From IMG/VR virus record IMGVR_UViG_3300010938_000017: a stretch of DNA of 64,000 bases. The stretch is one strand, 5' to 3'. Below, piece after piece: positions 1-52,789 of the stretch. The DNA is from a virus (taxonomy: Duplodnaviria > Heunggongvirae > Uroviricota > Caudoviricetes). Each line of letters opens with the position of its first letter. Position 1 is the first letter of the stretch. The notes under the pieces were generated by a model. That model saw only the letters and a list, made by a program, of their open reading frames with translations. It did no database searches and was not told the origin of the DNA. A program made the position numbers and the translations under genes.

Positions 1-419
1 CATTTTAAACTTTCTATAGCTCTAATCGCTGAACTAGATATATGAGTAAGTTTTCTATCAGAGATAATATAAAAAACTGGTATATCTAATCCTAAATCTT
101 CGTTCCAATATTGTTGTGTTTTTTCATATTCAAGGTCAGAACCGTTTCGTAGACCTTTAATAACTGCTACTGGTCTTAAAGGGCCGTTTTTTAAAGATTC
201 CACAAAATCAACAAACAAACCATCAAACTTCATCACATTTACGTAAGGTGATGTTATAGAATTTTTCAAAGCGATAAAAGACTTATTATCTAATTTCTTA
301 TTTGGGTTTGTTCCTTGTGCAATTATAACTCTATCAAAAATACAAATCGCTTTAGTAATTACATCCTGATGACCTTTATGCCAAGGATTAAAGCTGCCTG
401 GATATACTGCTATTCTCAT
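1..419 (-). CDS. CoaD-like (phosphopantetheine adenylyltransferase family) nucleotidyltransferase, 3'-truncated by the window edge
   Basis: Minus-strand translation from the ATG at 417-419 reads MRIAVYPGSFNPWHKGHQDVITKA...VIKGLRNGSDLEYE...ISSSAIRAI. This matches the (H/T)xGH and ISSS motifs and the overall pattern of E. coli CoaD. The ORF continues past position 1. Confidence 0.6.
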   Translation of the reverse strand, partial: MRIAVYPGSFNPWHKGHQDVITKAICIFDRVIIAQGTNPNKKLDNKSFIALKNSITSPYVNVMKFDGLFVDFVESLKNGPLRPVAVIKGLRNGSDLEYEKTQQYWNEDLGLDIPVFYIISDRKLTHISSSAIRAIESLK

Positions 420-38835: not shown

Positions 38836-39151
38836 CTGTAGGTTCTCCTTTTTTAATTTTTTCTGCTCTTTCGAATGCGTAACGTAATACTTTACCTTTA
38901 TTCTGCATGATCTCTTGGCAAAAAGCAAACAATTGTTCTTCTGCTTTGCCTTGTAACTTCACTTCTTCAAGAGGTTCAAATAATACAGCCTCTAATACAC
39001 GGGCTACTGAGTTCTTCTTACGAGCTACCCCATAAGCTAGATTACGAAACTCTTTATGAGCCTGGTTAATAAAGAATGCGGCCTCTTCAGTTTCATCCAC
39101 TTTCTTCTGAGTCTGAGGCGTTACCTCAGAGAGGATTCTGTTATTATCCAT
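38828..39151 (-). CDS. hypothetical protein
   Basis: 107-aa ORF. Confidence 0.4.
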   Translation of the reverse strand: MDNNRILSEVTPQTQKKVDETEEAAFFINQAHKEFRNLAYGVARKKNSVARVLEAVLFEPLEEVKLQGKAEEQLFAFCQEIMQNKGKVLRYAFERAEKIKKGEPTDE

Positions 39152-39759
39152 TATAAATCATCCTGGGAAACTAGTTCCGGTTGAGGTTCATGATTTGTTA
39201 CTTGTGGGGTTGTTTTTGTCTTTCTAAAGGACGGTTTAGCTACTGGTGCTGCTGTTTGGGCAGGTGCTGGAGTAGATGTTACCGCAGCGGCCGGTTTAGT
39301 ATCAGCCGTTCCTCCAACAGGTGTTGGAGCTTTAGCTGGTGCGGTGGGCTTTGTAGTAGCCTTACCTACAGCAGAGTTACCATCGTCATCTTCAGCTTTC
39401 ATCGATAGCAAAGCACCGAGAGTATAACGACGAGCATAAGTGATACCTGAACCAGACTTCTGCATATCATTATCACCAACAAGCTTCATTGAAGATTCAA
39501 GATATTGACCTGATTCGACATGATAGATCCTGCTAGTAACAAGATTGTGTTCACCGTAACTAAGTACAGGTTGTAACAGTAAAAGACCATTTGCTTCAAG
39601 AAGAGGTTCAACCTCATCCAAGTAAGTATTCAGATCTGCATACTTGCTCTTAAAGAAAGGATTATTGGCAGTTTTAGTAACCGCTTGTAAGTTTGATTTT
39701 ACTTTGGCTAATGCGGGAAGGATTTTATCCAAGCCGCGATTCATATCTAAACCTTTCAT
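39151..39759 (-). CDS. ERF-family single-strand annealing protein
   Basis: NPFFKSKYADLNTYLDEVEPLL and GITYARRYTLGALL parallel P22 Erf (NSFGKYKYRSCEDILEGVKPLL and SSYARKYCLNGLFG). The C-terminus is a low-complexity Pro/Ala/Thr tail. Confidence 0.65.
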   Translation of the reverse strand: MKGLDMNRGLDKILPALAKVKSNLQAVTKTANNPFFKSKYADLNTYLDEVEPLLEANGLLLLQPVLSYGEHNLVTSRIYHVESGQYLESSMKLVGDNDMQKSGSGITYARRYTLGALLSMKAEDDDGNSAVGKATTKPTAPAKAPTPVGGTADTKPAAAVTSTPAPAQTAAPVAKPSFRKTKTTPQVTNHEPQPELVSQDDL

Positions 39760-40073: not shown

Positions 40074-40258
40074 TTAGTCCTCGCTCTTTTAAGCATTTCT
40101 TCTAATAGTGTAACACGTTTTTTTAGTAATTCAACTTCTCTATTTAATTTTTCCATATCTAAATTACCCAGGTTATTATCAAACATCGACTTTAACTTAG
40201 GTTTAATCTTCTCTAACGCTTCTACTCTTTGTTCTAAAGTCTTATTACTTTTTACCAA
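40070..40258 (-). CDS. hypothetical coiled-coil protein
   Basis: 62-aa ORF. Confidence 0.35.
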   Translation of the reverse strand: MVKSNKTLEQRVEALEKIKPKLKSMFDNNLGNLDMEKLNREVELLKKRVTLLEEMLKRARTK

Positions 40259-41150
40259 TTTTCACCAATCCCGTCATATCTTTGCCACCTGACTTACAAT
40301 ACTTCTTATAACAACACGACTCTCCATAAGCGTCACAATTAGGGCTTTTACAATCAAAATTACCTTCTTTTATATTAGATAATACAATATCAAATTCATC
40401 AAATGTTTTTTGTATTAATCCTTCAGGGGGCACATCAATTATTACGCTAGTTCTAACTCGTGGTTCATTCTTACGAATTTTCTTTTCCATTACAAAAAAT
40501 GCAGCACCATCGAGAGGATACTTAGGCTTTAATGCATCATAATATACTGCTGTCTGTTTGCCATATTCTTCAGTTTTAATAGAGTCTTCTTTATATTTTA
40601 CAGAAGTAGTTTTATGATCAGGAACAATCAAACGACCATCTTCCCACTCTAAAATAGCATCGACTTTACCATTGATCTCATCACCGATACCATTGGGTAA
40701 TGTAAAGCTTTCCTGAAGCGCAATAACCTTTTTAATTTTAGGGCGAATCTCTTGAGCATACGCAGTAATCAACATTTCACCCTTACGTTGTAAAGATGCC
40801 CATGTCTGAAATTGAACTGGCTTATTCTGAAGATCTGCTTTTTCTTTATCATTAAATACATCCATATCTAAATCAGCTTTGGTATAACGAATGTATTTTG
40901 AATTGGATAAATCCACTATTGAACCATTAACTGTGTAAGTTTTAAAGTTTTTGCGGAATACATCTAATGCTTGTTCTAATGTTGCTCCTTTAAGCAAGGC
41001 TTCAAGTCCAGTCTCAATCAAACTACCAAAGAAAAAAACGGACTTTAATTTTTCGTCACGTAAATATAAGTGATAATGATAAAAATAAGCGCGTGGTGAT
41101 TTTAGATATAATTCTTTTGATGTATGTGAAAGACTAATTACAGATTTCAT
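40245..41150 (-). CDS. Cas4/RecB-like PD-(D/E)xK exonuclease with C-terminal Cys cluster
   Basis: 301 aa with the C-terminal cluster CKSPNCDAYGESCCYKKYC, and adjacent to ERF, a typical phage recombination pair. Confidence 0.55.
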   Translation of the reverse strand: MKSVISLSHTSKELYLKSPRAYFYHYHLYLRDEKLKSVFFFGSLIETGLEALLKGATLEQALDVFRKNFKTYTVNGSIVDLSNSKYIRYTKADLDMDVFNDKEKADLQNKPVQFQTWASLQRKGEMLITAYAQEIRPKIKKVIALQESFTLPNGIGDEINGKVDAILEWEDGRLIVPDHKTTSVKYKEDSIKTEEYGKQTAVYYDALKPKYPLDGAAFFVMEKKIRKNEPRVRTSVIIDVPPEGLIQKTFDEFDIVLSNIKEGNFDCKSPNCDAYGESCCYKKYCKSGGKDMTGLVKIGKK

Positions 41151-41722: not shown

Positions 41723-41999
41723 TATTATCTTTTTTCACAATCCCGTAATTTCTATCTCTTTCCTCAGTTGCAAAATTATATCCAAGATGAATCAAGGCTT
41801 TCTTAGCCTGACGAAGTAGCACGATATAATTCTTAGTATTACCACCCTGAACAAGTGCTTTACCATCATGATTTACAATTTCAAATGTGAAATTTTCTCT
41901 ATCGATAACAATCCTGACGTTCTCACCACTAGTAGTGCCATAAGTCTGTCTAGAAATTCCAATCGCGCCTTCAAAATCGTATCTAATTCGTTGATGCAT
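41715..41999 (-). CDS. hypothetical protein
   Basis: 94-aa ORF. Confidence 0.35.
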   Translation of the reverse strand: MHQRIRYDFEGAIGISRQTYGTTSGENVRIVIDRENFTFEIVNHDGKALVQGGNTKNYIVLLRQAKKALIHLGYNFATEERDRNYGIVKKDNNG

Positions 42000-42029
42000 A
42001 TTTTCTCCTATCTCATAATGATACGATCA

Positions 42030-42284
42030 TTAAGGTGTATTGTCAATAGAATGTTCTTCAAGAAGCGCCTCTATTGCTTCATACATAACTAAGCGAAATC
42101 TCTTGATAATATGGCGTTTCGTATTCGATCTTAAACCAGTAGCCTTAGCTACTAAGTACATTTGTTCCCAAGTAAACCATATTTTATCATCATCATCGAC
42201 TTGTTTTAATATTGGTTTTTCCTTAGTGTGTTTTTGTAAAAGGTCACAATAAGGCTTACGATGTGCCGAAAATCTACGTTTCAT
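42030..42284 (-). CDS. hypothetical protein
   Basis: 84-aa ORF. Confidence 0.35.
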   Translation of the reverse strand: MKRRFSAHRKPYCDLLQKHTKEKPILKQVDDDDKIWFTWEQMYLVAKATGLRSNTKRHIIKRFRLVMYEAIEALLEEHSIDNTP

Positions 42285-42745
42285 TTTATATAAACCTTTA
42301 CCGTAATATCTTTAAATGTGCTTTCCAGGATTGCTTTTACAATGTTCCAGTCGCCACCGGCTAGTCCACATCCGATCTTTGGCATAGCGACTACATTAAT
42401 TTTATACTGTTTACAATAGTTGTATAGTTCTTCCATGCAGGAAACTAATGCATCGTAAGAAAGATACTTTTCACCATCTCCACCGTAATATTGTTGTGTA
42501 AAACAATTAGCTACCTGTTTACCATGACGTTCAACGTAAAATACATCGATCTTACCAAGAAAGTTTTCACCTTCAGGTCCAGCATTAAACTCTTCAAACA
42601 TATCGTGATACCATTGCTTAACTCTAGGCCACTTCTCAAATAAGGCTTTAGCAACACCGCTCCCCATAACGCCTTGGCAATTAACGCCGTGCGCTATAAG
42701 TGGAGCATCAGTATCTAAAAGATCACCCTTTATTTCCTGAATCAT
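42281..42745 (-). CDS. macro-domain protein (ADP-ribose binding/processing)
   Basis: The sequence IKGDLLDTDAPLIAHGVNCQGVMGSGVAKAL matches the macro-domain G-D-I-x...A-N and G-x-G-G-V signatures. The start is set at an ATG with an AAAGGGGAAG Shine-Dalgarno. Confidence 0.7.
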   Translation of the reverse strand: MIQEIKGDLLDTDAPLIAHGVNCQGVMGSGVAKALFEKWPRVKQWYHDMFEEFNAGPEGENFLGKIDVFYVERHGKQVANCFTQQYYGGDGEKYLSYDALVSCMEELYNYCKQYKINVVAMPKIGCGLAGGDWNIVKAILESTFKDITVKVYIK

Positions 42746-42917
42746 CTTTCTTCCCCTTTGGTCTAGGATTTCTTGTATCCATAACAAAAGACCAGTATTT
42801 ACCCCATTCACCAGTTTCGAGATGAGGACCTTCACCAGTCTCTTCATAACCAGATATCAAGCCGCGTTTCCTTTGGCTCTCAACTAGTTTCCAAAACTTT
42901 CGTTCTTTTCGATTCAT
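42723..42917 (-). CDS. small basic ORF between NAMPT and macro genes (uncertain)
   Basis: 64-aa ORF without a clear Shine-Dalgarno. It overlaps the longest version of the macro ORF. Confidence 0.25.
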   Translation of the reverse strand: MNRKERKFWKLVESQRKRGLISGYEETGEGPHLETGEWGKYWSFVMDTRNPRPKGKKDDSGNKG

Positions 42918-42922
42918 TTTTC

Positions 42923-44407
42923 TTAGGCTCGTTGACTTGTCAGCTTGTTACGGATATCTGCAAAGGTCTGTTCACGAATTAGCACACCATTCACGAACAC
43001 ATCCTGAAGTAGGTTGTGACCTGTGGCCGTAGCTTGTTCTTCATCCTTTTTCAAGAATCCATCGATGTAACCAATTGTACCATCAGCTTGCACTAGTACA
43101 ACCACTTTGCCTTTTTGAGAGATCTTAGTACCATCATCAGTCTTCGGTGCCTTAAAGATCTGACGCTCATCACCGTTAATTACTGCATACGTAGACTTAA
43201 GAGCGAACCCAAAAGTATCACGAGTATTATAATTATAGGTATAAGAGCCAATGCCGTAGACGAGGTTAGTAGTTGCGAAACCTTTTTCTTTAAGTTGATC
43301 GCAAATCGCTTGGCATCTTTCCAACGTGATTGCATCTCCATAGATACAACCAATATGAGAATCAAGCTCTCTATAGCCAGCAGAATTAGTCGTTCCGCCA
43401 AAGCTATCCCAAAGCGTTTCAACAAGGCCTTTGCGTTCTGCTTCAGTCTTTGCATCTTTATCTCCACAGATAATTTTAACCGGATCGCCAGAATCAGGGC
43501 GAATCACAAGTTTACCGTTACGAGCCATAATTTCAGTTTTCAATACAGGAAGAACTACTGTCACTACATTCCAAAAATCAGTAGTATCACTCACTACCGA
43601 TACAATACCTGAGGGATACAGTTGAGTAAGAATGCGACGATAAGCCGCTACTTCATCAGCCCCATAGGCCGACATGATTGAGTGCTCTGTAGCAGGTACT
43701 GAACAACCCACAAGCTCCTTTTCAACGTTAGCACCATAGTAGTGCTCTACGTAAAGGATTGCCGGAATGGTATCAGTGCCAACAAACGACAACAAGTGAC
43801 CAGCCCCGCTTAACATAGCCGATTCATTGCTACTCATACCACGATAGCTGAAGTCATGACCTTGGAATGGAACAAACTCTTGCGATCCACCAGTGTCTTT
43901 GGCACCCTTATTCAGGATTGTTCTGTATTGATTAGCGATGGTGGCGCTAGTGGAAGGTCCCCATAGTTCGGACGACATAAGGGTTTCAATGAAGTTAGTC
44001 AGCCAATAGAAACGAGGATCGGTATTCTCAATGGTCAACATCGGAACACGCAAAGGAACCAAGGTGCCTTCTTCTACTGCTTTGATTCGCAGAGGGAGAT
44101 AGCCTAGCTCATGCAGTTCAACAATGTGATCTGTCTCAGGGTTAGCAACCCCAAGAGTATTCTTAATGATACGAGTATACTCAGAGAGTACGTCAACGAT
44201 ATCACGATCAAAGAAGTTTTGATCGAAGTACGCGATCAGATATTTCTTAATGAAGCCCTGAAAACCAAAGGCCACAACCTTATTAACACCATCAATCCTG
44301 CTTGTACGAGGAGTCCAAGTAGAATATACAACTTCGGTTTTAGCTGGATAAAGCGAACGATGCGAGATCTTATAGAAGTCACACAATAACATTACTGACG
44401 GTTTCAT
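42923..44407 (-). CDS. nadV: nicotinamide phosphoribosyltransferase (NAMPT/NadV-like)
   Basis: The 494-aa length and overall composition fit type II PRTase/NAMPT, and it is adjacent to a Prs homologue. Confidence 0.8.
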   Translation of the reverse strand: MKPSVMLLCDFYKISHRSLYPAKTEVVYSTWTPRTSRIDGVNKVVAFGFQGFIKKYLIAYFDQNFFDRDIVDVLSEYTRIIKNTLGVANPETDHIVELHELGYLPLRIKAVEEGTLVPLRVPMLTIENTDPRFYWLTNFIETLMSSELWGPSTSATIANQYRTILNKGAKDTGGSQEFVPFQGHDFSYRGMSSNESAMLSGAGHLLSFVGTDTIPAILYVEHYYGANVEKELVGCSVPATEHSIMSAYGADEVAAYRRILTQLYPSGIVSVVSDTTDFWNVVTVVLPVLKTEIMARNGKLVIRPDSGDPVKIICGDKDAKTEAERKGLVETLWDSFGGTTNSAGYRELDSHIGCIYGDAITLERCQAICDQLKEKGFATTNLVYGIGSYTYNYNTRDTFGFALKSTYAVINGDERQIFKAPKTDDGTKISQKGKVVVLVQADGTIGYIDGFLKKDEEQATATGHNLLQDVFVNGVLIREQTFADIRNKLTSQRA

Positions 44408-44559
44408 ACTAACTCCACTTGTTTACGTTTTTTAACAATTACTTTATCATCTTTTTCTTCTGGGCCACGGCATTGTAGTTTAACTGTATGCTTACGTTGC
44501 TCCAAAACTTCAGCTTCAATTTCCATATCGAATTTCAATGAGTATTATTTAGCTTTCAT

Positions 44560-44976
44560 TTAGTATTGTTTCTCATATTTAACGTTGAATTTTTTAGGAA
44601 AGTTCTTTTCTACAAAGTTAACTAATCTTTTAACAACGGAAGCAGAGGCGTGTTTTGACTTCTCTCTTTGCATAATATATTCAAAGTAGTTTGATAATGC
44701 ACCTAAATAATTCTTTTCATTAAGCAATCGTTTAATATTGTGATCAACTGCTGTTCCTCTACAATAACCCATCGCTATTTCACTAAGAGTACTGGTAGGT
44801 GCAAGATTTAAAACTCTTTTATCCAAAGAATTTTTAAGGACAGCGCCGACCGCACAAACAAAACATGATTCCGAATATATATTAGTTTTTTCATCCTTAA
44901 AAAAAGCACCAGCTCTAAGTGGTTCAGTTTTAATAGCTTTAATTACTTTGTTTTTAGTTAGCTTAAGTGTTTTCAT
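44560..44976 (-). CDS. hypothetical protein embedded in the NAD cluster
   Basis: 138-aa ORF between NAMPT and the Prs-like gene, with no recognisable motif. Confidence 0.4.
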   Translation of the reverse strand: MKTLKLTKNKVIKAIKTEPLRAGAFFKDEKTNIYSESCFVCAVGAVLKNSLDKRVLNLAPTSTLSEIAMGYCRGTAVDHNIKRLLNEKNYLGALSNYFEYIMQREKSKHASASVVKRLVNFVEKNFPKKFNVKYEKQY

Positions 44977-45763
44977 ATTTCCTCACTGTAATTTGACCTT
45001 GAACTTCACTGACTTCTCCATCTTTAGTGAAGATTCGGTTAATCTTAGCTTCCTTTAATGGTCGCAATCCTTTTGAATAGATACCATGACTAGTATAAAG
45101 ACTAACTGACTTAGCTCCACTATTATAGAGTTCTTTAGCCAGTAATACAAACGTCATACCACCATCACAAATGTCATCAATGATCATTACGTCTTTATCA
45201 TAGACGGTACCATTCATATCATTAAGTGTATATTTAGTGATATTGCCTGTCAACTGATCACGTTGCTTTTCACCATGAGCCACTGAACGATTAAGGAACG
45301 CTAGGTTCTTTGCATATCGCAGTCTGGCACCACGATCAGGAAAGCACAACACATCAGGATCACACGCTTTAACCGCATTGGCGATCTGAACAACAGGAAA
45401 GATATTGTGAAAATTCTTGATAAGAAAGATAGGTTCATCGCTGTGTGAATCAATAGCTGAGATCTTGTCTAACTTCAATGTATTCAAGAAGTTAGCGAAT
45501 GTCCTTAAAGCGAATGTGGATTCATTGCTGATCTCTTTATCTTGACGACCATAAGGCAGGTAATCCATAGCCAAAGAAATCTTCTTTACTTTCATAGACC
45601 TAAGCAGGTCAACCAGTTGGGCTAGGTGAAACAGTTCTGCCTCTTGAGAGAATTTCCAATCAATCATGGCAATGTCACCAACGATGAACGGAAGCTTCCA
45701 AACCTGTGAAGTCTGGTCACTAAAACGAGTTACCTCAATTGGATAACTATTTACGCTAATCAT
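44963..45763 (-). CDS. ribose-phosphate pyrophosphokinase (Prs) homologue, short form (266 aa)
   Basis: RFSD...VW, LPYGRQDK (resembling Prs IPYFGYARQDR) and the PRPP-binding loop VMIIDDICDGGMTF are present. Confidence 0.8.
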   Translation of the reverse strand: MISVNSYPIEVTRFSDQTSQVWKLPFIVGDIAMIDWKFSQEAELFHLAQLVDLLRSMKVKKISLAMDYLPYGRQDKEISNESTFALRTFANFLNTLKLDKISAIDSHSDEPIFLIKNFHNIFPVVQIANAVKACDPDVLCFPDRGARLRYAKNLAFLNRSVAHGEKQRDQLTGNITKYTLNDMNGTVYDKDVMIIDDICDGGMTFVLLAKELYNSGAKSVSLYTSHGIYSKGLRPLKEAKINRIFTKDGEVSEVQGQITVRKYENT

Positions 45764-45907
45764 TTTAACCCCTAGTTACTGGCACCGAATGAAAAGGAAT
45801 CGGTATCAATTTACCATCATACCACAGCCGATATCAACACCGACAGCAGCAGGACTATCACATCCTGCTGCAAATATTAAGAATAATACCAGAGCTACTT
45901 GTTTACA

Positions 45908-47353
45908 TTAGCGAGTCGAGGCTCCGTTAGACTTACCCGAACCATTCAATGCCGAAGCAGAGGGAGCCGGTTTAGCCAAAGTCTTGGTCAAGTTACCTAA
46001 CAGACCAGCGCCTTGTTCACTATTATTCAAAGCCTCAAGCATGGCACCAACTTGAGTGCCACCATTAGCAGTAAACAAGTCCATCACATTCGTCAAACCT
46101 TGGGTAGGTCCTGCTCCAGTGTTGGAGATAACCTTAATATCGGCATGGCCCAAAGCCTTAGCTTGCTCAACACCCACAGCTTGAGCGGCATGAATCTTTT
46201 CAATAGTAACGAGATACTCTTGATATTCCTTATTGCCACCAATCTCTTTAGCCAAGGTAATCTGTGCAGATACAGGAGCTAGTTCCATTGCCTTTGTAGC
46301 TTCAGCACGAGCAGTACCTTCAAGACTAATACCTTCAGCCTCGCGGCGCTTTGCTTCCAGATCGCCTTCAGCAACCAGAGTAAGTGTTGCCTTCTGTGCT
46401 TCAGCATTAATAAGCTGGGTTTGCTTTTGGCCTTCAGCGTTAATAACCTGAGTTTGTTTAATCTGTTCAGCCTTAACTATTTCAACTTCACGAGCAATTT
46501 CAGCGGTACGAACTTGTTGAACACTAAACACGTTCATCTCTTTCTCTTTAGTCACCTTTTCTTGTTCCTTAATTGCCTGAATCTTCTCTTGTTGAGCAAG
46601 GGCAACCTGACGTTCATTCTGAGTTGTACGCAGACCTACTTCTTGTTTTGCATTTTGATCCTGCAAATCAATTTCTTTCTTAGCTTCAATCTCAGCGATA
46701 GAAGCAACGCGCTTATTCTTAGCAACCTCAGTACGAGATTCCATTTCGATATGCGATTGTTTCTTAGCCATAATGTTCTTAATCACAGGGCTATCTTTAG
46801 AGTCACGAATGTCCATCAACTCGATGTTTTTAACAGTCGAAACACCCCAGTTCTTAAGCTGTTCAGCCACTTCTTTAGTGAACTGTTCGCCAAATACTGA
46901 GCGACCTTGCAGGATTTCTTCAATGTCGTAACTGGCCAAGACCACACGTACTGCGCCTTGAACAATCGAGGTCAATTGATCATGTAGTTCTTTAAAGGAA
47001 CTAACACGTTGAGCGGCAGTATTGCTATCAGAAATACGAAAGAAAGCCATAATGTCAACTACGAAAGGCAAGCGGCCTTTATCATAAGCTTCGTAGTTAT
47101 CAAGACGTAGTGAAAATACACTAACAGGCAAGATAATCCTGGTCACTCCAAAGAAAGGAACAAACGAAGGCCATTGATAATAAACGTTACCGTTACCAGT
47201 GTCTTTACCGTAACTAGTAGTTTTACGTGCCGATTGAACGGTATGTACTTCATTAGTCGATACTACTCGACGAAATACGAAAGCTACGAACAGGAACGTT
47301 GCGAGAGCTACGACACCTAATGTACCGAGAGCCGTAAGTGTAATTAGATCCAT
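45908..47353 (-). CDS. SPFH/band-7 (flotillin-like) membrane protein
   Basis: An N-terminal TM (LGTLGVVALATFLFVAFVF) is followed by an SPFH-like region and a long EA/EK coiled coil of flotillin type. Confidence 0.65.
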   Translation of the reverse strand: MDLITLTALGTLGVVALATFLFVAFVFRRVVSTNEVHTVQSARKTTSYGKDTGNGNVYYQWPSFVPFFGVTRIILPVSVFSLRLDNYEAYDKGRLPFVVDIMAFFRISDSNTAAQRVSSFKELHDQLTSIVQGAVRVVLASYDIEEILQGRSVFGEQFTKEVAEQLKNWGVSTVKNIELMDIRDSKDSPVIKNIMAKKQSHIEMESRTEVAKNKRVASIAEIEAKKEIDLQDQNAKQEVGLRTTQNERQVALAQQEKIQAIKEQEKVTKEKEMNVFSVQQVRTAEIAREVEIVKAEQIKQTQVINAEGQKQTQLINAEAQKATLTLVAEGDLEAKRREAEGISLEGTARAEATKAMELAPVSAQITLAKEIGGNKEYQEYLVTIEKIHAAQAVGVEQAKALGHADIKVISNTGAGPTQGLTNVMDLFTANGGTQVGAMLEALNNSEQGAGLLGNLTKTLAKPAPSASALNGSGKSNGASTR

Positions 47354-50761: not shown

Positions 50762-52789
50762 CTATTTTGAATTAATATATAAAGCTATGTCATCACTCAA
50801 CTTATTAAAGTTTGCATGGTTGATAGCATCTAACAACGGATACTCTTTAAGCTTCTTAGTCAACTCTGCATCCTCTTTATTAAACGTATCAACGTCCGGT
50901 TGCTGGCCAAATATCTTTAGTATCTTGGTAGGAATACTATCATATGTGGCTGATCTAGAGTCTACCATTATCTCTTTATACTCAGCAATCATTTTGTTTA
51001 AGAACTTATCTTTAATACCTGTAACGTTTAACAGACTACTCATCATATCGGTATTCTTAGCTTCCTTAAGCTTTAAGACAGCAACATCTTTCTTAGTAGC
51101 CTTTACCTTAGCTAATTGTGTCTCTAATGGTATGAAGTTTGCATCACCTTTAACCAGACTTATCGCCTGTTTCGATAAAGCACATACCTTAAAACCTTGA
51201 GCAGAGAAGTACGTGTCCATCTCATGTAATTCAGACTTGTTTATAAGATCAGTCTTCTCAACAAACAACCACTTAGTAGTATTCGATTCAGTACTAACTG
51301 TCAGCATTGTATGTCTGACGCGGTCCATTCGATGAACGATGAACTGTTTCTTTGTTCGTTCAACCTTCATCGACTCCCGAGCCTTACGATCCGGTTTGGT
51401 AAAAGCCAGTGAAGACAATGGCTTAAGACCTAAATCCTTCTTGACTTTATCAAACTCACCTTTATCATCCTTGTGCTTACTAAACAGAATGAGATGTTTG
51501 TTCGTCTTTAAAAAATCCTTGATACGATAATTCGTAATGACCATTGCCTCAGTCGTATCGTTGTAGTAAAGAGCATCGAAGTATACAGCGTTGATATAAG
51601 GCGTTGAATATGACCAGGAGTATCTCGTTTTCTTGAACAGATTATCCTTAAGCAAACTGTTGTTGGTCGGATGAAACTGACACTTATGAGCTATGATCTT
51701 TTCAAACAAAGGTGATTGAATTTGATTCTTAGCATCAACCGTATAGTCACCATACTTTCTAAAAGAATCCAGATTGTACTTATCCTTCAATGTCATGAAC
51801 GTAGTTAGATGCTCAAAGGGTGACGTAACTTTAGCAAACTCTTTCTTTAGTCTAGCCAAGATGTTCTTGTGTGCTTCAGCCGCGATCTTATCCAGGTTAT
51901 CTAAAGTGTATTTAGAATCGGAGATCTCTTCACGAGATGCACCGACTTCAATCTCACCGTTACCAACGTGAAGAACTATGTTTGAAGTTACACTCTCTTT
52001 TAACAATTTTAAGTTAGGGCACGAAGCAATAAGAGATTCACCTGCCACATAAGGAATACCATCAATTGAGATAACAATCTTTTTACCGTAATGATCGGCG
52101 ATGTAATTTGGCAACTCCGTACACAACTCAACGTTACCAATAGTTTCGCCTTGGACACGAGGAACTACTTCCTCCTTAGTAAAACCTTTTAAGATCGGTT
52201 GTTCTTTCTCAGGCCAGAAGTATACAGCACGACGAGCCGCATTCTTAAACTCTTCAACATCCTTCGGACTAACTGGAATCTGAATCTCTGTTCCATTCGG
52301 CTGATCGGTGTTAGCCTCTCCTAAATAATCCAAACGTCCGTTGTTATTCGCTCCGATATGGGCAATGTAAGTACGTTGTACCCCATCGATGTATGTAACA
52401 ACCGTAAACGATTCGGTGTAGGACCATGCCGATTTCGCACCAATGCCGAAGCCGCCAGTCTCTTTGTTCGACTTATCCTTAGTCGAAGCATCATACTTGA
52501 TGAAGACATTCAACATCCTGTCAGGGGTAATGCCAGGACCAAAGTCACGAACCTTAAACGTTGGTGTGAAAATTGTGGGCACAGTAATCTCAATGCGGTC
52601 GGAGGAACCTAACTCCCTCATCGCATCACGAGCATTACAAATATACTCTTGGCTTGGTGTACGAACTTTAAACTTGTACATTTTGTTACGAAGAATCTCA
52701 ATGATCTTTGAAGTATCACCAATTGAAAACTCTTGACTGGTGAACTGAGCGTTAGTCTCAAGTGTTTTTTGTGTTTGATTCAATTTCAT
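50762..52789 (-). CDS. rIIA: rIIA protein
   Basis: The N-terminus FSIGDTSKIIEIL...FKVRDFGPGIT...GGFGIGAKSAWSY aligns with T4 rIIA (FSITASPKVFKIL...FVCRDFGPGMS...GGFGLGSKSPFSY). Confidence 0.85.
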   Translation of the reverse strand: MKLNQTQKTLETNAQFTSQEFSIGDTSKIIEILRNKMYKFKVRTPSQEYICNARDAMRELGSSDRIEITVPTIFTPTFKVRDFGPGITPDRMLNVFIKYDASTKDKSNKETGGFGIGAKSAWSYTESFTVVTYIDGVQRTYIAHIGANNNGRLDYLGEANTDQPNGTEIQIPVSPKDVEEFKNAARRAVYFWPEKEQPILKGFTKEEVVPRVQGETIGNVELCTELPNYIADHYGKKIVISIDGIPYVAGESLIASCPNLKLLKESVTSNIVLHVGNGEIEVGASREEISDSKYTLDNLDKIAAEAHKNILARLKKEFAKVTSPFEHLTTFMTLKDKYNLDSFRKYGDYTVDAKNQIQSPLFEKIIAHKCQFHPTNNSLLKDNLFKKTRYSWSYSTPYINAVYFDALYYNDTTEAMVITNYRIKDFLKTNKHLILFSKHKDDKGEFDKVKKDLGLKPLSSLAFTKPDRKARESMKVERTKKQFIVHRMDRVRHTMLTVSTESNTTKWLFVEKTDLINKSELHEMDTYFSAQGFKVCALSKQAISLVKGDANFIPLETQLAKVKATKKDVAVLKLKEAKNTDMMSSLLNVTGIKDKFLNKMIAEYKEIMVDSRSATYDSIPTKILKIFGQQPDVDTFNKEDAELTKKLKEYPLLDAINHANFNKLSDDIALYINSK

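What the first reader, a model, noticed from the sequence alone, without database searches (positions are those of the whole stretch)
42281..45763. Phage NAD+ cluster: macro-domain protein, NAMPT, unknown 138-aa protein and a short Prs homologue
Four co-oriented, tightly packed genes encode a macro domain (ADP-ribose binding/processing), a nicotinamide phosphoribosyltransferase, an unknown protein, and a truncated PRPP-synthetase homologue (266 aa against about 315 for cellular Prs). Phage NAMPT plus Prs-homologue pairs are the architecture of NAD+ reconstitution pathways that counter NAD+-depleting defences (Thoeris, DSR, SIR2-HerA, SEFIR). In the NARP1 pathway the Prs homologue makes ADPR-pyrophosphate and the NAMPT homologue joins it to nicotinamide. 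The adjacent macro domain and the unknown 138-aa gene are not part of the described two-gene systems. They could feed ADPR to the pathway, for example by processing modified ADPR species, or could reverse ADP-ribosylation. A CoaD-like adenylyltransferase at 1-419 might also belong to nucleotide-cofactor metabolism.
Basis: partly seen in the sequence, partly recalled or inferred. Interest (0 to 1): 0.75.

Follow-up and report, generated by a model that had tools for sequence, protein, structure and literature searches.

The report
Phage NAD+-rebuilding operon with phosphatase
This is an uncultured phage's copy of a pathway described in 2024-2026 (NARP1 plus a macro-domain phosphatase) that rebuilds NAD+ after bacterial defences destroy it, so it is ordinary except for one unexplained small gene wedged inside it.

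Summary
The gene cluster exists at the stated coordinates, all on the minus strand. By sequence it is a NARP1-AP operon.

- **Adps:** the short Prs homologue keeps the catalytic and ADPR-binding residues and the donor loop of the solved ICP1 Adps. It lacks the cellular Prs C-terminus.
- **Namat:** the NAMPT homologue is 61% identical to the biochemically validated SPbetaL1 Namat. It keeps the ADPR-PP "selectivity clamp" residues that cellular NAMPT lacks.
- **Adpp:** the macro protein probably starts at Met35, giving 154 aa. It belongs with the NARP1-associated, Poa1p-like macro phosphatases that turn ADPR-1''-phosphate into ADPR. Osterman et al. (bioRxiv, Jan 2026) showed this for Vibrio phage Gary.

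The 138-aa protein is a real gene under purifying selection. It belongs to an unannotated, metagenome-only phage family of at least 916 clusters with invariant Glu, Cys-x2-Cys and Glu. It has no Pfam, PHROG, PDB or fold match. About 15 of 17 other genomic contexts of this family lack NARP1, so it is most likely a passenger cassette and not a pathway component.

The CoaD-like gene at 1-419 is unrelated. Verdict: new member of a known kind, low to moderate interest.

The parts
44963..45763 (-). Adps (ADP-ribose pyrophosphate synthetase; Prs-like, 266 aa), first gene of the unit
   Evidence: Pfam Pribosyltran_N and Pribosyltran; phrog_619 204 bits. The alignment with ICP1, SPbetaL1 and PHB09 Adps keeps F14, R73, H107, D143, K166, D196 and D197 (ICP1 F18, R87, H121, D161, K185, D212, D213). 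The PP loop is DDICDGGMTF against ICP1 DDICDGAASF. It matches TIGR01251 positions 24-270 of 309 at 115.5 bits, similar to validated ICP1 (98) and SPbetaL1 (106), and is far below every Prs equivalog cut-off.
44560..44976 (-). 138-aa protein of an unannotated phage family; probable passenger cassette, function unknown
   Evidence: No Pfam, PHROG or NCBIfam hit. It has 30 homologues in the 5.8-billion-protein database and 916 representative clusters in the 1.84-billion-protein library. Invariant residues are E18, C38, C41 and E99. The AF2 model has pLDDT 88 and pTM 0.85, with no fold match. dN/dS is about 0.11 against L005. GC is 31%, against 39-43% for the enzyme genes.
44404..44538 (-). Small conserved ORF (about 44 aa, TTG start); stop overlaps the Namat start by 4 nt
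   Evidence: tblastn with the L005 52-aa ORF gives 63% identity over 46 aa, E 1e-14. Its order relative to the 138-aa gene is swapped compared with L005.
42923..44407 (-). Namat (nicotinamide ADP-ribose transferase; NAMPT-like, 494 aa)
   Evidence: Scores 699 bits to PDB 9W5X/9W5W (SPbetaL1 Namat) against about 232 bits to cellular NAMPT. It is 61.5% identical to SPbetaL1 Namat and 59% to phage FADO Namat. It keeps R37, H184, R303, Y389 and Y393, equivalent to SPbetaL1 R40, H187, R306, F392 and Y396. NAMPT has Ala/Gly and Lys at the last two positions.
42281..42745 (-). Adpp-type macro-domain protein (probable ADPR-1''-phosphate phosphatase, 154 aa from Met35; the longest ORF runs to 42847)
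   Evidence: Pfam Macro E 6.7e-10; phrog_335 'phosphatase' E 5e-46. An HMM of 11 NARP1-associated macro proteins from Table S1 of Osterman 2026 scores it at 119 bits. It is 27% identical to the validated Gary Adpp and 35% to others, and all family-conserved motifs are present. PDB sequence hits include Poa1p 6LFQ/6LFU (E 5e-8 to 4e-7), TARG1 and DarG. The start at 42745 is supported by the L005 orthologue and the ribosome-binding site.
45768..45812 (-). Relic of the 3' end of a P-loop kinase (AAA_28) gene directly upstream of Adps
   Evidence: It encodes KLIPIPFHSVPVTRG*, 14/15 identical to the C-terminus of the 194-aa AAA_28 protein that precedes Adps in L005. Nucleotide homology to L005 starts at about 45814.
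41997..42046 (-). Conserved promoter-like site (TTGACA-17-TATCAT) plus ribosome-binding site and ATG of the next gene; marks the 3' boundary of the unit
   Evidence: It is the best promoter-like match in the region, 11/12. It is conserved in L005 immediately after that contig's macro gene, although the flanks differ. The window has an extra 84-aa ORF (42030-42284) between the macro gene and this site.

Best explanation
The cluster is a NARP1-AP operon, that is, NAD+ reconstitution pathway 1 with an associated phosphatase, sitting in the early/replication gene array of an uncultured phage.

The inferred mechanism, taken from the characterised orthologues, has three steps:
1. A host defence NADase cleaves NAD+ to nicotinamide plus ADPR (Thoeris ThsA, DSR1/2, SIR2-HerA, SEFIR). 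RES-domain aRES proteins instead give nicotinamide plus ADPR-1''-phosphate, and the macro protein Adpp removes that 1''-phosphate to give ADPR.
2. [quoted passage not shown]
3. Namat joins ADPR-PP to nicotinamide, giving NAD+ plus PPi.

What is shown here is gene identity, conservation of catalytic and specificity residues, synteny and operon-like packing. What is inferred is enzymatic activity and anti-defence function.

The 138-aa gene and the roughly 44-aa ORF between Adps and Namat are best explained as co-transcribed passenger cassettes in an insertion-prone slot, not as pathway components. The 138-aa protein has a conserved Glu/Cys-x2-Cys/Glu constellation, which suggests a small metal-binding or catalytic protein with its own unknown job, possibly anti-defence or host takeover.
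For: **Namat**
- 699 bits to the SPbetaL1 Namat crystal structures 9W5X/9W5W, against about 232 bits to NAMPT. PMC12774641 identifies those entries as Namat.
- Clamp and core residues are kept: R37, Y389, Y393, R303, H184. NAMPT has Ala/Gly and Lys at the two clamp-helix positions.

**Adps**
- All seven catalytic or acceptor residues named for ICP1 Adps in PMC13586617 are conserved, and the donor PP loop is DDICDGGMTF.
- It lacks the Prs C-terminal region and scores like validated Adps on Prs models.
- 1547 phage records carry homologues.

**Adpp**
- The macro gene lies immediately downstream of Namat, which satisfies the criterion of Osterman 2026.
- It scores 119 bits against an HMM of their NARP1-associated macro set, against 39 bits for generic Pfam Macro.
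- It is Poa1p/TARG1-class.
- The same gene order, Adps-Namat-macro, occurs in Pseudomonas phage PHB09, which is in their Table S1.

**Operon structure**
- Genes overlap or abut, no terminator was predicted above chance, and a conserved promoter follows the unit.
- The whole set recurs in L005 under purifying selection, with dN/dS 0.08-0.30.

**Passenger status of the 138-aa gene**
- There is no homologue in 50,697 phage records, so none of the 859 catalogued NARP1 operons has it.
- Family members in L001-4, L008-10, L018-22, L027, L029, L034, L039, L045, L046 and the P0031 contig have no Adps or Namat within the flanks held.
- In the syntenic relatives L001 and L016 the family gene sits between the PD-(D/E)XK nuclease and ERF, not inside NARP1.
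- Its order relative to the small ORF is swapped between the window and L005, and its GC is 31% against 39-43% for the enzyme genes.
Against: - No enzymology or infection data exist for this phage, and its host is unknown.
- The Adps is below 40% identical to every Adps in the phage collection. ICP1 F92, an adenine contact, is Ile here, although it is also not conserved in the validated SPbetaL1 enzyme. I did not build a Prs/Adps phylogeny.
- The macro protein is only 27% identical to the one Adpp that has been assayed. Its family (phrog_335) is widespread in phages that lack NARP1 (2357 records), so phosphatase specificity is inferred.
- By score the macro protein is about as close to DarG and TARG1 as to Poa1p.
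- For the 138-aa gene, conservation of its position inside the operon in two phages, plus a copy within 3 kb of a NARP1-like cluster in L016, leaves some room for a functional link.
Confidence: 0.85

Rival explanations
1. The 138-aa protein is a fourth, functional module of the pathway. It could convert another defence-made ADPR derivative (for example a cyclic ADPR signal, as RyDEP does) into ADPR for NARP1. Alternatively it could bind or inhibit an NADase.
For: - It lies inside the operon and is translationally coupled to Adps (14-nt overlap) in the window. It is also inside the operon in L005.
- A family member lies 2.9 kb from a macro/Adps-like/NAMPT-like cluster in the distant contig L016.
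- Invariant polar residues E18, C38, C41 and E99 across at least 55 diverse members suggest catalysis or ligand/metal binding.
- There is precedent for such add-ons: Adpp and RyDEP are both NARP1-adjacent.
- Family members occur near Tad3 and Gad2 anti-defence genes.
Against: - About 15 of 17 independent family contexts have no NARP1 in the flanks held.
- None of the NARP1 operons in 50,697 phage records has a homologue.
- The window, L005, L001 and L016 share one genome module in which the gene moves about, so the two or three co-occurrences are not independent.
- The NAMPT homologue of L016 lacks the Namat clamp.
- It is not a RyR-domain protein: no PF02026 hit and no RyR fold match.
- It is too large for aRad1 and has no invariant Trp.
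Confidence: 0.13
2. The macro protein is not an ADPR-1''P phosphatase. Instead it removes ADP-ribose from modified protein or DNA, like DarG or TARG1, countering ADP-ribosyltransferase toxins or defences independently of NARP1.
For: - The best NCBIfam hit is the DarG macro domain (67.9 bits).
- PDB sequence hits include DarG 5M3I (40.6 bits) and TARG1 (33.5 bits), at levels similar to Poa1p (36 bits).
- The macro family is common in phages without NARP1.
Against: - The DarG score is far below its cut-off (67.9 against 250).
- The residue aligned with the DarG 'PTK' lysine is Gln in the window, and Gln is conserved in all 11 NARP1-associated macro proteins. That this lysine is catalytic in DarG and TARG1 is from my own knowledge.
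- It scores 119 bits against the Adpp-set HMM.
- It lies directly after Namat, as in PHB09 and other NARP1-AP operons.
Confidence: 0.08
3. The pair is an ordinary nucleotide-salvage module. A true PRPP synthetase supplies a NadV-type NAMPT that makes NMN (NARP2-like or general metabolic boosting), and host enzymes finish NAD+.
For: - The Prs homologue marginally passes the broad TIGR01251 'ribose-phosphate diphosphokinase' subfamily cut-off (115.5 against 113).
- Namat enzymes retain about half of NAMPT activity on PRPP in vitro (PMC12774641).
Against: - Validated Adps enzymes score the same way on TIGR01251 (98 and 106 bits). All Prs equivalog models are missed by 200-500 bits.
- The Adps-type PP loop and the loss of the C-terminal region are present.
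- The Namat clamp residues are present.
- There is no Nmnat gene in the cluster. The only adenylyltransferase seen is CoaD-like and 42 kb away.
Confidence: 0.04

Closest known systems
NARP1-AP of Vibrio phage Gary (Adps-Adpp-Namat; Osterman et al., bioRxiv 10.64898/2026.01.28.702374)
   Same: It has the same three enzyme families: a Prs-like Adps, a NAMPT-like Namat, and a Poa1p-like macro domain next to them. The expected chemistry is the same: ADPR-1''P -> ADPR -> ADPR-PP -> NAD+.
   Different: - The gene order here is Adps-(138 aa)-(44 aa)-Namat-macro, as in PHB09 for the three enzymes. In Gary it is Adps-macro-Namat.
- The macro protein is only 27% identical to Gary Adpp.
- Two extra small ORFs lie between Adps and Namat, and an 84-aa ORF follows the macro gene.
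- The host is unknown and nothing has been assayed.
NARP1 of Bacillus phage SPbetaL1, phage FADO and Vibrio phage ICP1 (Osterman 2024; PMC12774641; PMC13586617)
   Same: Namat is 61.5% identical to SPbetaL1 and 59% to FADO, with the selectivity clamp conserved. Adps keeps the ICP1 catalytic Lys, the Asp pair and the acceptor residues.
   Different: Adps is only about 30-37% identical to those enzymes. The core two-gene systems have no macro gene and no intervening ORFs.
RyDEP + NARP1 of mycobacteriophage DyoEdafos (bioRxiv 10.64898/2026.05.28.727677)
   Same: It sets a precedent for a small accessory protein, encoded beside NARP1, that converts an ADPR derivative (2'/3'cADPR) into ADPR for the pathway.
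   Different: The 138-aa protein is not a RyR-domain protein. It has no PF02026 hit and no structural match to RyR repeats. Its family is mostly found away from NARP1.
NARP2 (KVP40 NadV + Nmnat) and cellular Prs/NAMPT salvage
   Same: The protein superfamilies are the same (PRPP synthetase fold, type II phosphoribosyltransferase).
   Different: There is no Nmnat partner in the cluster. The NAMPT homologue carries the Namat clamp, and the Prs homologue carries the Adps-type donor loop and lacks the Prs C-terminal regulatory helices.
Poa1p / TARG1 / DarG class of macro domains
   Same: The window macro protein hits all three by sequence (E 1e-7 to 1e-9). Like them, it is a small stand-alone macro domain.
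   Different: The catalytic lysine position of DarG/TARG1 is Gln. Its closest relatives are phage NARP1-associated macro proteins and the uncharacterised Bacteroides protein BT1257.
Pfam DUF6197 (for the 138-aa family)
   Same: 6 of 30 family members give weak hits (best E 0.018).
   Different: These are well below the gathering threshold. Only 2 of 55 diverse members hit, and the window protein itself gives no hit. The relationship is not established, and DUF6197 has no known function.

Membership tests
NARP1: Adps | Prs-like two-domain protein that scores like validated phage Adps and not like cellular Prs | tested here: met
   Pfam Pribosyltran_N and Pribosyltran. phrog_619 scores 204 bits. 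TIGR01251 scores 115.5 bits, against ICP1 98 and SPbetaL1 106. Prs equivalog models give 39-91 bits against cut-offs of 296-536. No formal phylogeny was built.
NARP1: Adps | Acceptor and catalytic residues of ICP1 Adps (F18, R87, H121, D161, K185, D212, D213; PMC13586617) | tested here: met
   The window has F14, R73, H107, D143, K166, D196 and D197. F92 is Ile78, and is also not conserved in the validated SPbetaL1 Adps.
NARP1: Adps | Remodelled PP (donor) loop conserved among Adps (ICP1 C215-S220 plus F221) | tested here: met
   DDICDGGMTF against ICP1 DDICDGAASF and PHB09 DDICDGGRTF. Archaeal Prs structures have DDIISTGGT.
NARP1: Adps | Loss of the Prs C-terminal alpha11-alpha12 region | tested here: met
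   The protein is 266 aa. It aligns to TIGR01251 positions 24-270 of 309, with only 18 residues after the match. This length is typical of Adps: ICP1 280 and SPbetaL1 272 aa.
NARP1: Adps | ATP-dependent pyrophosphorylation of ADPR to ADPR-PP | not testable with these tools
   Needs an enzyme assay with LC-MS.
NARP1: Namat | NAMPT-like catalytic core (catalytic His; SPbetaL1 R306) | tested here: met
   H184 and R303 are conserved. PF04095 E 4e-43.
NARP1: Namat | ADPR-PP selectivity clamp: aromatic residues of the clamp helix (F392, Y396) and R40 of the clamp loop (PMC12774641) | tested here: met
   The window has Y389, Y393 and R37. Its clamp helix reads GIGSYTYNYNTRD, against SPbetaL1 GIGSFTYQYNTRD and NAMPT GSGGALLQKLTRD.
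NARP1: Namat | Closer to validated Namat than to NAMPT/NadV | tested here: met
   699 bits to 9W5X/9W5W, 561 bits to 9KE8 and about 232 bits to mammalian NAMPT. It is 61.5% identical to SPbetaL1.
NARP1 (pathway) | [quoted passage not shown] | tested here: met
   555 nt apart, on the same strand, with two small ORFs between them. The phage context includes RIIA, ERF, primase/helicase and DNA polymerase.
NARP1-AP: Adpp | Macro-domain gene (PF01661/PF14519/PF20016) within two genes of the NARP1 genes | tested here: met
   PF01661 scores 39.4 bits against a cut-off of 22. The gene lies immediately downstream of Namat. The criterion is quoted.
NARP1-AP: Adpp | Homology to the assayed Gary Adpp, to the NARP1-associated macro set and to yeast Poa1p | tested here: met
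   The HMM of 11 Table-S1 sequences scores it at 119 bits. BLASTP to Gary gives 27% identity, E 7e-12. Poa1p 6LFU/6LFQ give E 5e-8 and 3.6e-7 over residues 4-99.
NARP1-AP: Adpp | ADPR-1''-phosphate phosphatase activity; rescue from aRES | not testable with these tools
   Needs an enzyme assay and a plaque assay.
RyDEP (RyR-domain glycosidase/sponge), considered for the 138-aa protein | Pfam PF02026 RyR domain / R12-like fold | tested here: not met
aRad1 (aRES inhibitor), considered for the 138-aa protein | Small protein (founding member about 70 aa) with a conserved Trp and a flexible Gly-containing loop | tested here: not met
   The family is 120-180 aa and has no invariant Trp. The sequences were not compared directly.
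Cellular PRPP synthetase (Prs) | Passes the curated Prs equivalog models; canonical DxxxDTxGT ribose-5-P loop; C-terminal helices | tested here: not met
   All equivalog models fail by more than 200 bits. Only the broad TIGR01251 subfamily cut-off is marginally passed. The loop and the C-terminus differ.
DarG/TARG1 ADP-ribosyl glycohydrolases | Catalytic lysine in the 'PTK' / 'TKK' strand | tested here: not met
   This position is aligned with Gln in the window, and Gln is conserved in all Adpp-set sequences. NF048014 scores 67.9 bits against a cut-off of 250. The role of the lysine is from my own knowledge.
NARP2 | NadV-type Nampt together with an Nmnat (NMN adenylyltransferase) | tested here: not met
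   There is no adenylyltransferase in or next to the cluster. The CoaD-like fragment at 1-419 scores 100 bits for PPAT against about 23 bits for NMNAT models. The rest of the window was not scanned exhaustively.

The most novel reading that the evidence does not exclude
The 138-aa protein would be the founding member of an undescribed phage protein family: at least 916 clusters at 50% identity, metagenome-only, with invariant Glu18, Cys38-x2-Cys41 and Glu99, and a confidently predicted fold with no PDB or viral-model match. Under this reading it acts on NAD+-derived molecules. It could convert another defence-made ADPR derivative into ADPR for NARP1, making a four-enzyme 'NARP1-AP-plus'. Or it could neutralise an NADase or its signal. 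In phages that lack NARP1 it would work as a stand-alone anti-defence protein.
Probability: 0.12. Interest if true: 0.7.

Novelty: new member of a known kind. Interest (0 to 1): 0.3.

Why it matters
As a NARP1-AP operon it adds one divergent, uncultured-phage example to a pathway already shown to defeat NAD+-depleting defences (Thoeris, DSR, SIR2-HerA, SEFIR, aRES). That is useful for cataloguing and as an independent check of the residue rules for Adps and Namat, but it is not surprising.

The residual value lies in the slot between Adps and Namat. It appears to collect small cassettes: the 138-aa gene, a 44-52-aa ORF and a 74-aa ORF in L005, whose content and order vary between two related phages. 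One of these cassettes belongs to a large family that no database names and that is strongly conserved. If that family turned out to handle ADPR-type molecules or to block an NADase, it would extend the set of NARP1 add-ons beyond Adpp and RyDEP and give a function to hundreds of phage ORFans.

Tried and rejected
**Searches for the cluster and the 138-aa protein**
- Megablast of the cluster against 50,697 phage records gave no match.
- tblastn of the 138-aa protein against the same collection gave no match at E <= 0.01.
- Pfam, PHROG and NCBIfam scans of the 138-aa protein and of 30 and 55 family members found nothing. DUF6197 appeared only as a weak hit in a few members.

**Fold and structure searches with the AF2 model**
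- Foldseek against the PDB: best E 1.1.
- BFVD viral models: best E 0.39.
- The afdb50 library was not available.
- A profile search of PDB sequences returned only a chance mS27 motif.

**Other searches**
- A scan of 185,579 species genomes found no family member.
- A literature search for the family's motifs found nothing relevant.

**Identities considered for the 138-aa protein and rejected**
- RyDEP: no RyR domain.
- aRad1: wrong size, no conserved Trp.
- Tad1/Tad2-type sponges: no PDB fold match.
- A DNA mimic: pI 9.8.

**Other ideas rejected**
- A link between the CoaD-like gene and the cluster, including a comparison with the ICP1 nucleotidyltransferase near its NARP1: no similarity.
- The 64-aa ORF at 42723-42917 as a gene: not conserved in L005, low complexity, and it overlaps the better-supported macro start.

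**Not significant**
- Enrichment of NARP1 next to the family. Two of about 17 lineages show it, but they share one syntenic genome module, so the count is not independent.

Full report
**Observation**

The window carries a tight minus-strand gene array at 42281-45763:
- a 266-aa Prs-like gene (44963-45763)
- a 138-aa gene (44560-44976), overlapping the Prs-like gene by 14 nt
- a roughly 44-aa ORF (44404-44538), whose stop overlaps the next start by 4 nt
- a 494-aa NAMPT-like gene (42923-44407)
- a macro-domain gene (42281-42847 as the longest ORF)

Pfam and PHROG confirm the three domain assignments and find nothing for the 138-aa protein.

A related metagenomic contig, L005, has the same set: Adps 76%, the 138-aa protein 65%, Namat 82% and macro 62% identical. 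All are under purifying selection, with dN/dS 0.08-0.30 and saturated dS. The L005 macro orthologue aligns from residue 35 of the window ORF, and a strong ribosome-binding site precedes that Met. The macro gene is therefore most likely 42281-42745, 154 aa.

**What the literature already says**

- NARP1 (Adps + Namat) was described in 2024. It was found in 859 of 20,185 phage genomes and defeats Thoeris, DSR1, DSR2, SIR2-HerA and SEFIR.
- In January 2026 the same group reported that 15% of NARP1 operons carry a Poa1p-like macro-domain gene, Adpp. Adpp dephosphorylates ADPR-1''-phosphate, the product of the RES-domain defence aRES, to ADPR. This extended pathway is called NARP1-AP.
- Structures and residue-level rules exist for Namat (SPbetaL1; PDB 9W5X/9W5W) and for Adps (ICP1).
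- A further NARP1-adjacent accessory, the RyR-domain glycosidase RyDEP, turns 2'/3'cADPR into ADPR.

**Namat**

- The window protein scores 699 bits against the SPbetaL1 Namat chains and about 232 bits against mammalian NAMPT.
- It is 61.5% identical to SPbetaL1 Namat and 59% to that of phage FADO, whose NARP1 was validated by knock-out.
- The clamp residues are kept. These were mutated in PMC12774641 to their NAMPT counterparts (F392G, Y396K) and to R40A. The window has Y389, Y393 and R37.
- The catalytic His184 and Arg303 (SPbetaL1 R306) are also present.
- NAMPT reads GSGGALLQK where the window reads GIGSYTYNY.

**Adps**

- The PDB copy holds only cellular Prs, with a best hit of 82 bits. 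I therefore fetched the ICP1, SPbetaL1, KKP_3916 and PHB09 Adps genes from their phage records and aligned them.
- Every residue that PMC13586617 names as conserved for acceptor binding or catalysis is present. In window numbering these are F14, R73, H107, D143, K166, D196 and D197 (ICP1 F18, R87, H121, D161, K185, D212, D213).
- The donor PP loop is DDICDGGMTF, against DDICDGAASF in ICP1. Only F92 differs, and it also differs in SPbetaL1.
- On NCBIfam Prs models the window protein behaves like the two validated Adps. It scores 115 against their 98 and 106 bits on the broad subfamily model, fails all equivalog cut-offs by hundreds of bits, and lacks the last roughly 39 model positions.

**Macro / Adpp**

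- Table S1 of the 2026 preprint lists the NARP1-associated macro sequences. An HMM built from eleven of them scores the window protein at 119 bits, against 39 bits for Pfam Macro.
- All family-wide motifs are present: HxxNC, GxG(I/V)A, LG, NxxxQ, YxA and PxxGxGLxGGxW.
- Identity to the assayed Gary enzyme is only 27%.
- PDB sequence hits include Poa1p, TARG1 and DarG at similar levels.
- The residue aligned with the DarG 'PTK' lysine is Gln, both here and throughout the Adpp set. This argues against a glycohydrolase role. That this lysine is catalytic is from my own knowledge.
- Pseudomonas phage PHB09, listed in Table S1, has the same order Adps-Namat-macro.

**Transcription unit**

- No terminator-like site above chance lies inside the cluster.
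- The best promoter-like site in the region (TTGACA-17-TATCAT, 11/12, at 42046-42018 on the minus strand) is followed by a ribosome-binding site and the ATG of the next gene. It is conserved in L005 directly after that contig's macro gene, so it marks the 3' boundary.
- The window has an additional 84-aa ORF (42030-42284) between the macro gene and this site.
- Upstream, homology to L005 begins at about 45814 and covers the last 15 codons of an AAA_28 P-loop kinase gene. That gene precedes Adps in L005 but has been lost from the window.

**The 138-aa protein**

- It has no homologue in 50,697 phage records. It has 30 in the 5.8-billion-protein set and 916 representative clusters by profile search. 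None has a Pfam domain or a name, and all come from metagenomes.
- No member was found in 185,579 species genomes.
- Alignments show invariant E18, L20, C38, C41, V43, G44, L94, E99 and P127.
- It is basic (pI 9.8), and its gene has 31% GC against 39-43% for the enzyme genes.

**Is the 138-aa protein part of the pathway?**

I examined family contexts from the look-up of encoding contigs and the search for related loci.
- Only L005-L007 (the same arrangement as the window) and L016 have NARP1-like genes in the flanks.
- In L016 the family gene lies 2.9 kb downstream, between a PD-(D/E)XK nuclease and ERF. It has the same position in L001, which has no NARP1 in the flanks held.
- The window shares this genome module: NARP1-AP, HNH, PD-(D/E)XK, ERF, primase/helicase, DNA polymerase. 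The few co-occurrences are therefore not independent.
- The other contexts are early-gene regions full of small ORFs. Two have known anti-defence genes nearby: Tad3 in L045 and Gad2 in L046.
- Within the operon, the order of the 138-aa gene and the small ORF is swapped between the window and L005, and L005 has a further 74-aa ORF there.

The most economical reading is that the Adps-Namat spacer is an insertion-tolerant slot and the 138-aa gene is a co-transcribed passenger with its own function. I give about 0.13 to the alternative that it is a real fourth module.

**Other points in the finding**

The CoaD-like gene at 1-419 (minus strand, cut by the window edge) scores 100 bits on the PPAT equivalog, with a cut-off of 103 and a truncated protein. 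It scores about 23 bits on NMNAT models. It is 42 kb from the cluster, and I see no link.

**Verdict**

- The cluster is a new, divergent member of the known NARP1-AP kind.
- The only open item is the 138-aa family.

Noticed in passing
window 45768-45812 (-); L005 605-1189: The last 15 codons of an AAA_28 (P-loop kinase) gene survive directly upstream of the Adps start, 14/15 identical to L005. In L005 the intact 194-aa gene precedes Adps. As I recall, the NadR nicotinamide-riboside-kinase domain belongs to this Pfam family, but the L005 protein's only NCBIfam hit is a weak adenylate-kinase match. So some relatives may carry an extra kinase in the NAD+ operon, and the window lineage lost it.
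   Followed up: partly
window 44404-44544 (-): A small ORF (about 44 aa, TTG start) between the 138-aa gene and Namat is conserved with a 52-aa ORF of L005 (63% identity, E 1e-14). Its order relative to the 138-aa gene is swapped between the two phages. Its function is unknown.
   Followed up: partly
window 42723-42917 (-) and 42746-42847 (-): The 177-nt spacer between Namat and the probable macro start holds a 64-aa Lys/Gly-rich ORF and the N-terminal extension of the long macro ORF. Neither is conserved in L005, which has an unrelated 90-aa ORF there. Both are probably non-coding.
   Followed up: partly
L016 3684-5135 (IMGVR_UViG_3300037466_003153): This contig has macro, Adps-like (PP loop DDICDGGATF), a 187-aa ORF and a NAMPT homologue. 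The NAMPT homologue has a NAMPT-like clamp helix (GVGGLLLQDHSRD), not the aromatic Namat one. It may be a variant pathway or a different specificity solution.
   Followed up: no
L018 8001-8971; L028 292-1081; L029 6042-6835: Members of the 138-aa family occur as tandem paralogue pairs in three unrelated contigs.
   Followed up: no
L045 10476-10838; L046 14415-15323: Family members lie 2 kb from a Tad3 (anti-Thoeris, PF25185) gene and 6 kb from a Gad2 (anti-Gabija, PF26128) gene. This is consistent with residence in accessory or anti-defence regions, but it is not specific.
   Followed up: no
window 45908-47353 (-): A 481-aa SPFH/Band-7 (flotillin-like) protein with a long coiled-coil, Ala/Gln/Glu-rich C-terminal half lies immediately upstream of the operon, with a 144-nt gap. 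It is not present at this position in L005.
   Followed up: no
window 1-419 (-): A phage-encoded CoaD-like phosphopantetheine adenylyltransferase fragment (TIGR01510 100 bits), cut by the window edge. It has no similarity to the nucleotidyltransferase near the ICP1 NARP1.
   Followed up: partly
window 40245-41150 (-): A PD-(D/E)XK exonuclease with a C-terminal Cys cluster (CKSPNCDAYGESCCYKKYC) hits a PHROG annotated 'CRISPR/Cas system associated', which I read as Cas4-like. It is followed by ERF (39151-39759). RIIA is at 50762-52789.
   Followed up: no
window 41997-42046 (-): A near-consensus sigma-70-type promoter with ribosome-binding site is conserved between the window and L005, although the flanks are unrelated. 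It probably drives the downstream 94-aa/HNH/nuclease/ERF genes.
   Followed up: partly
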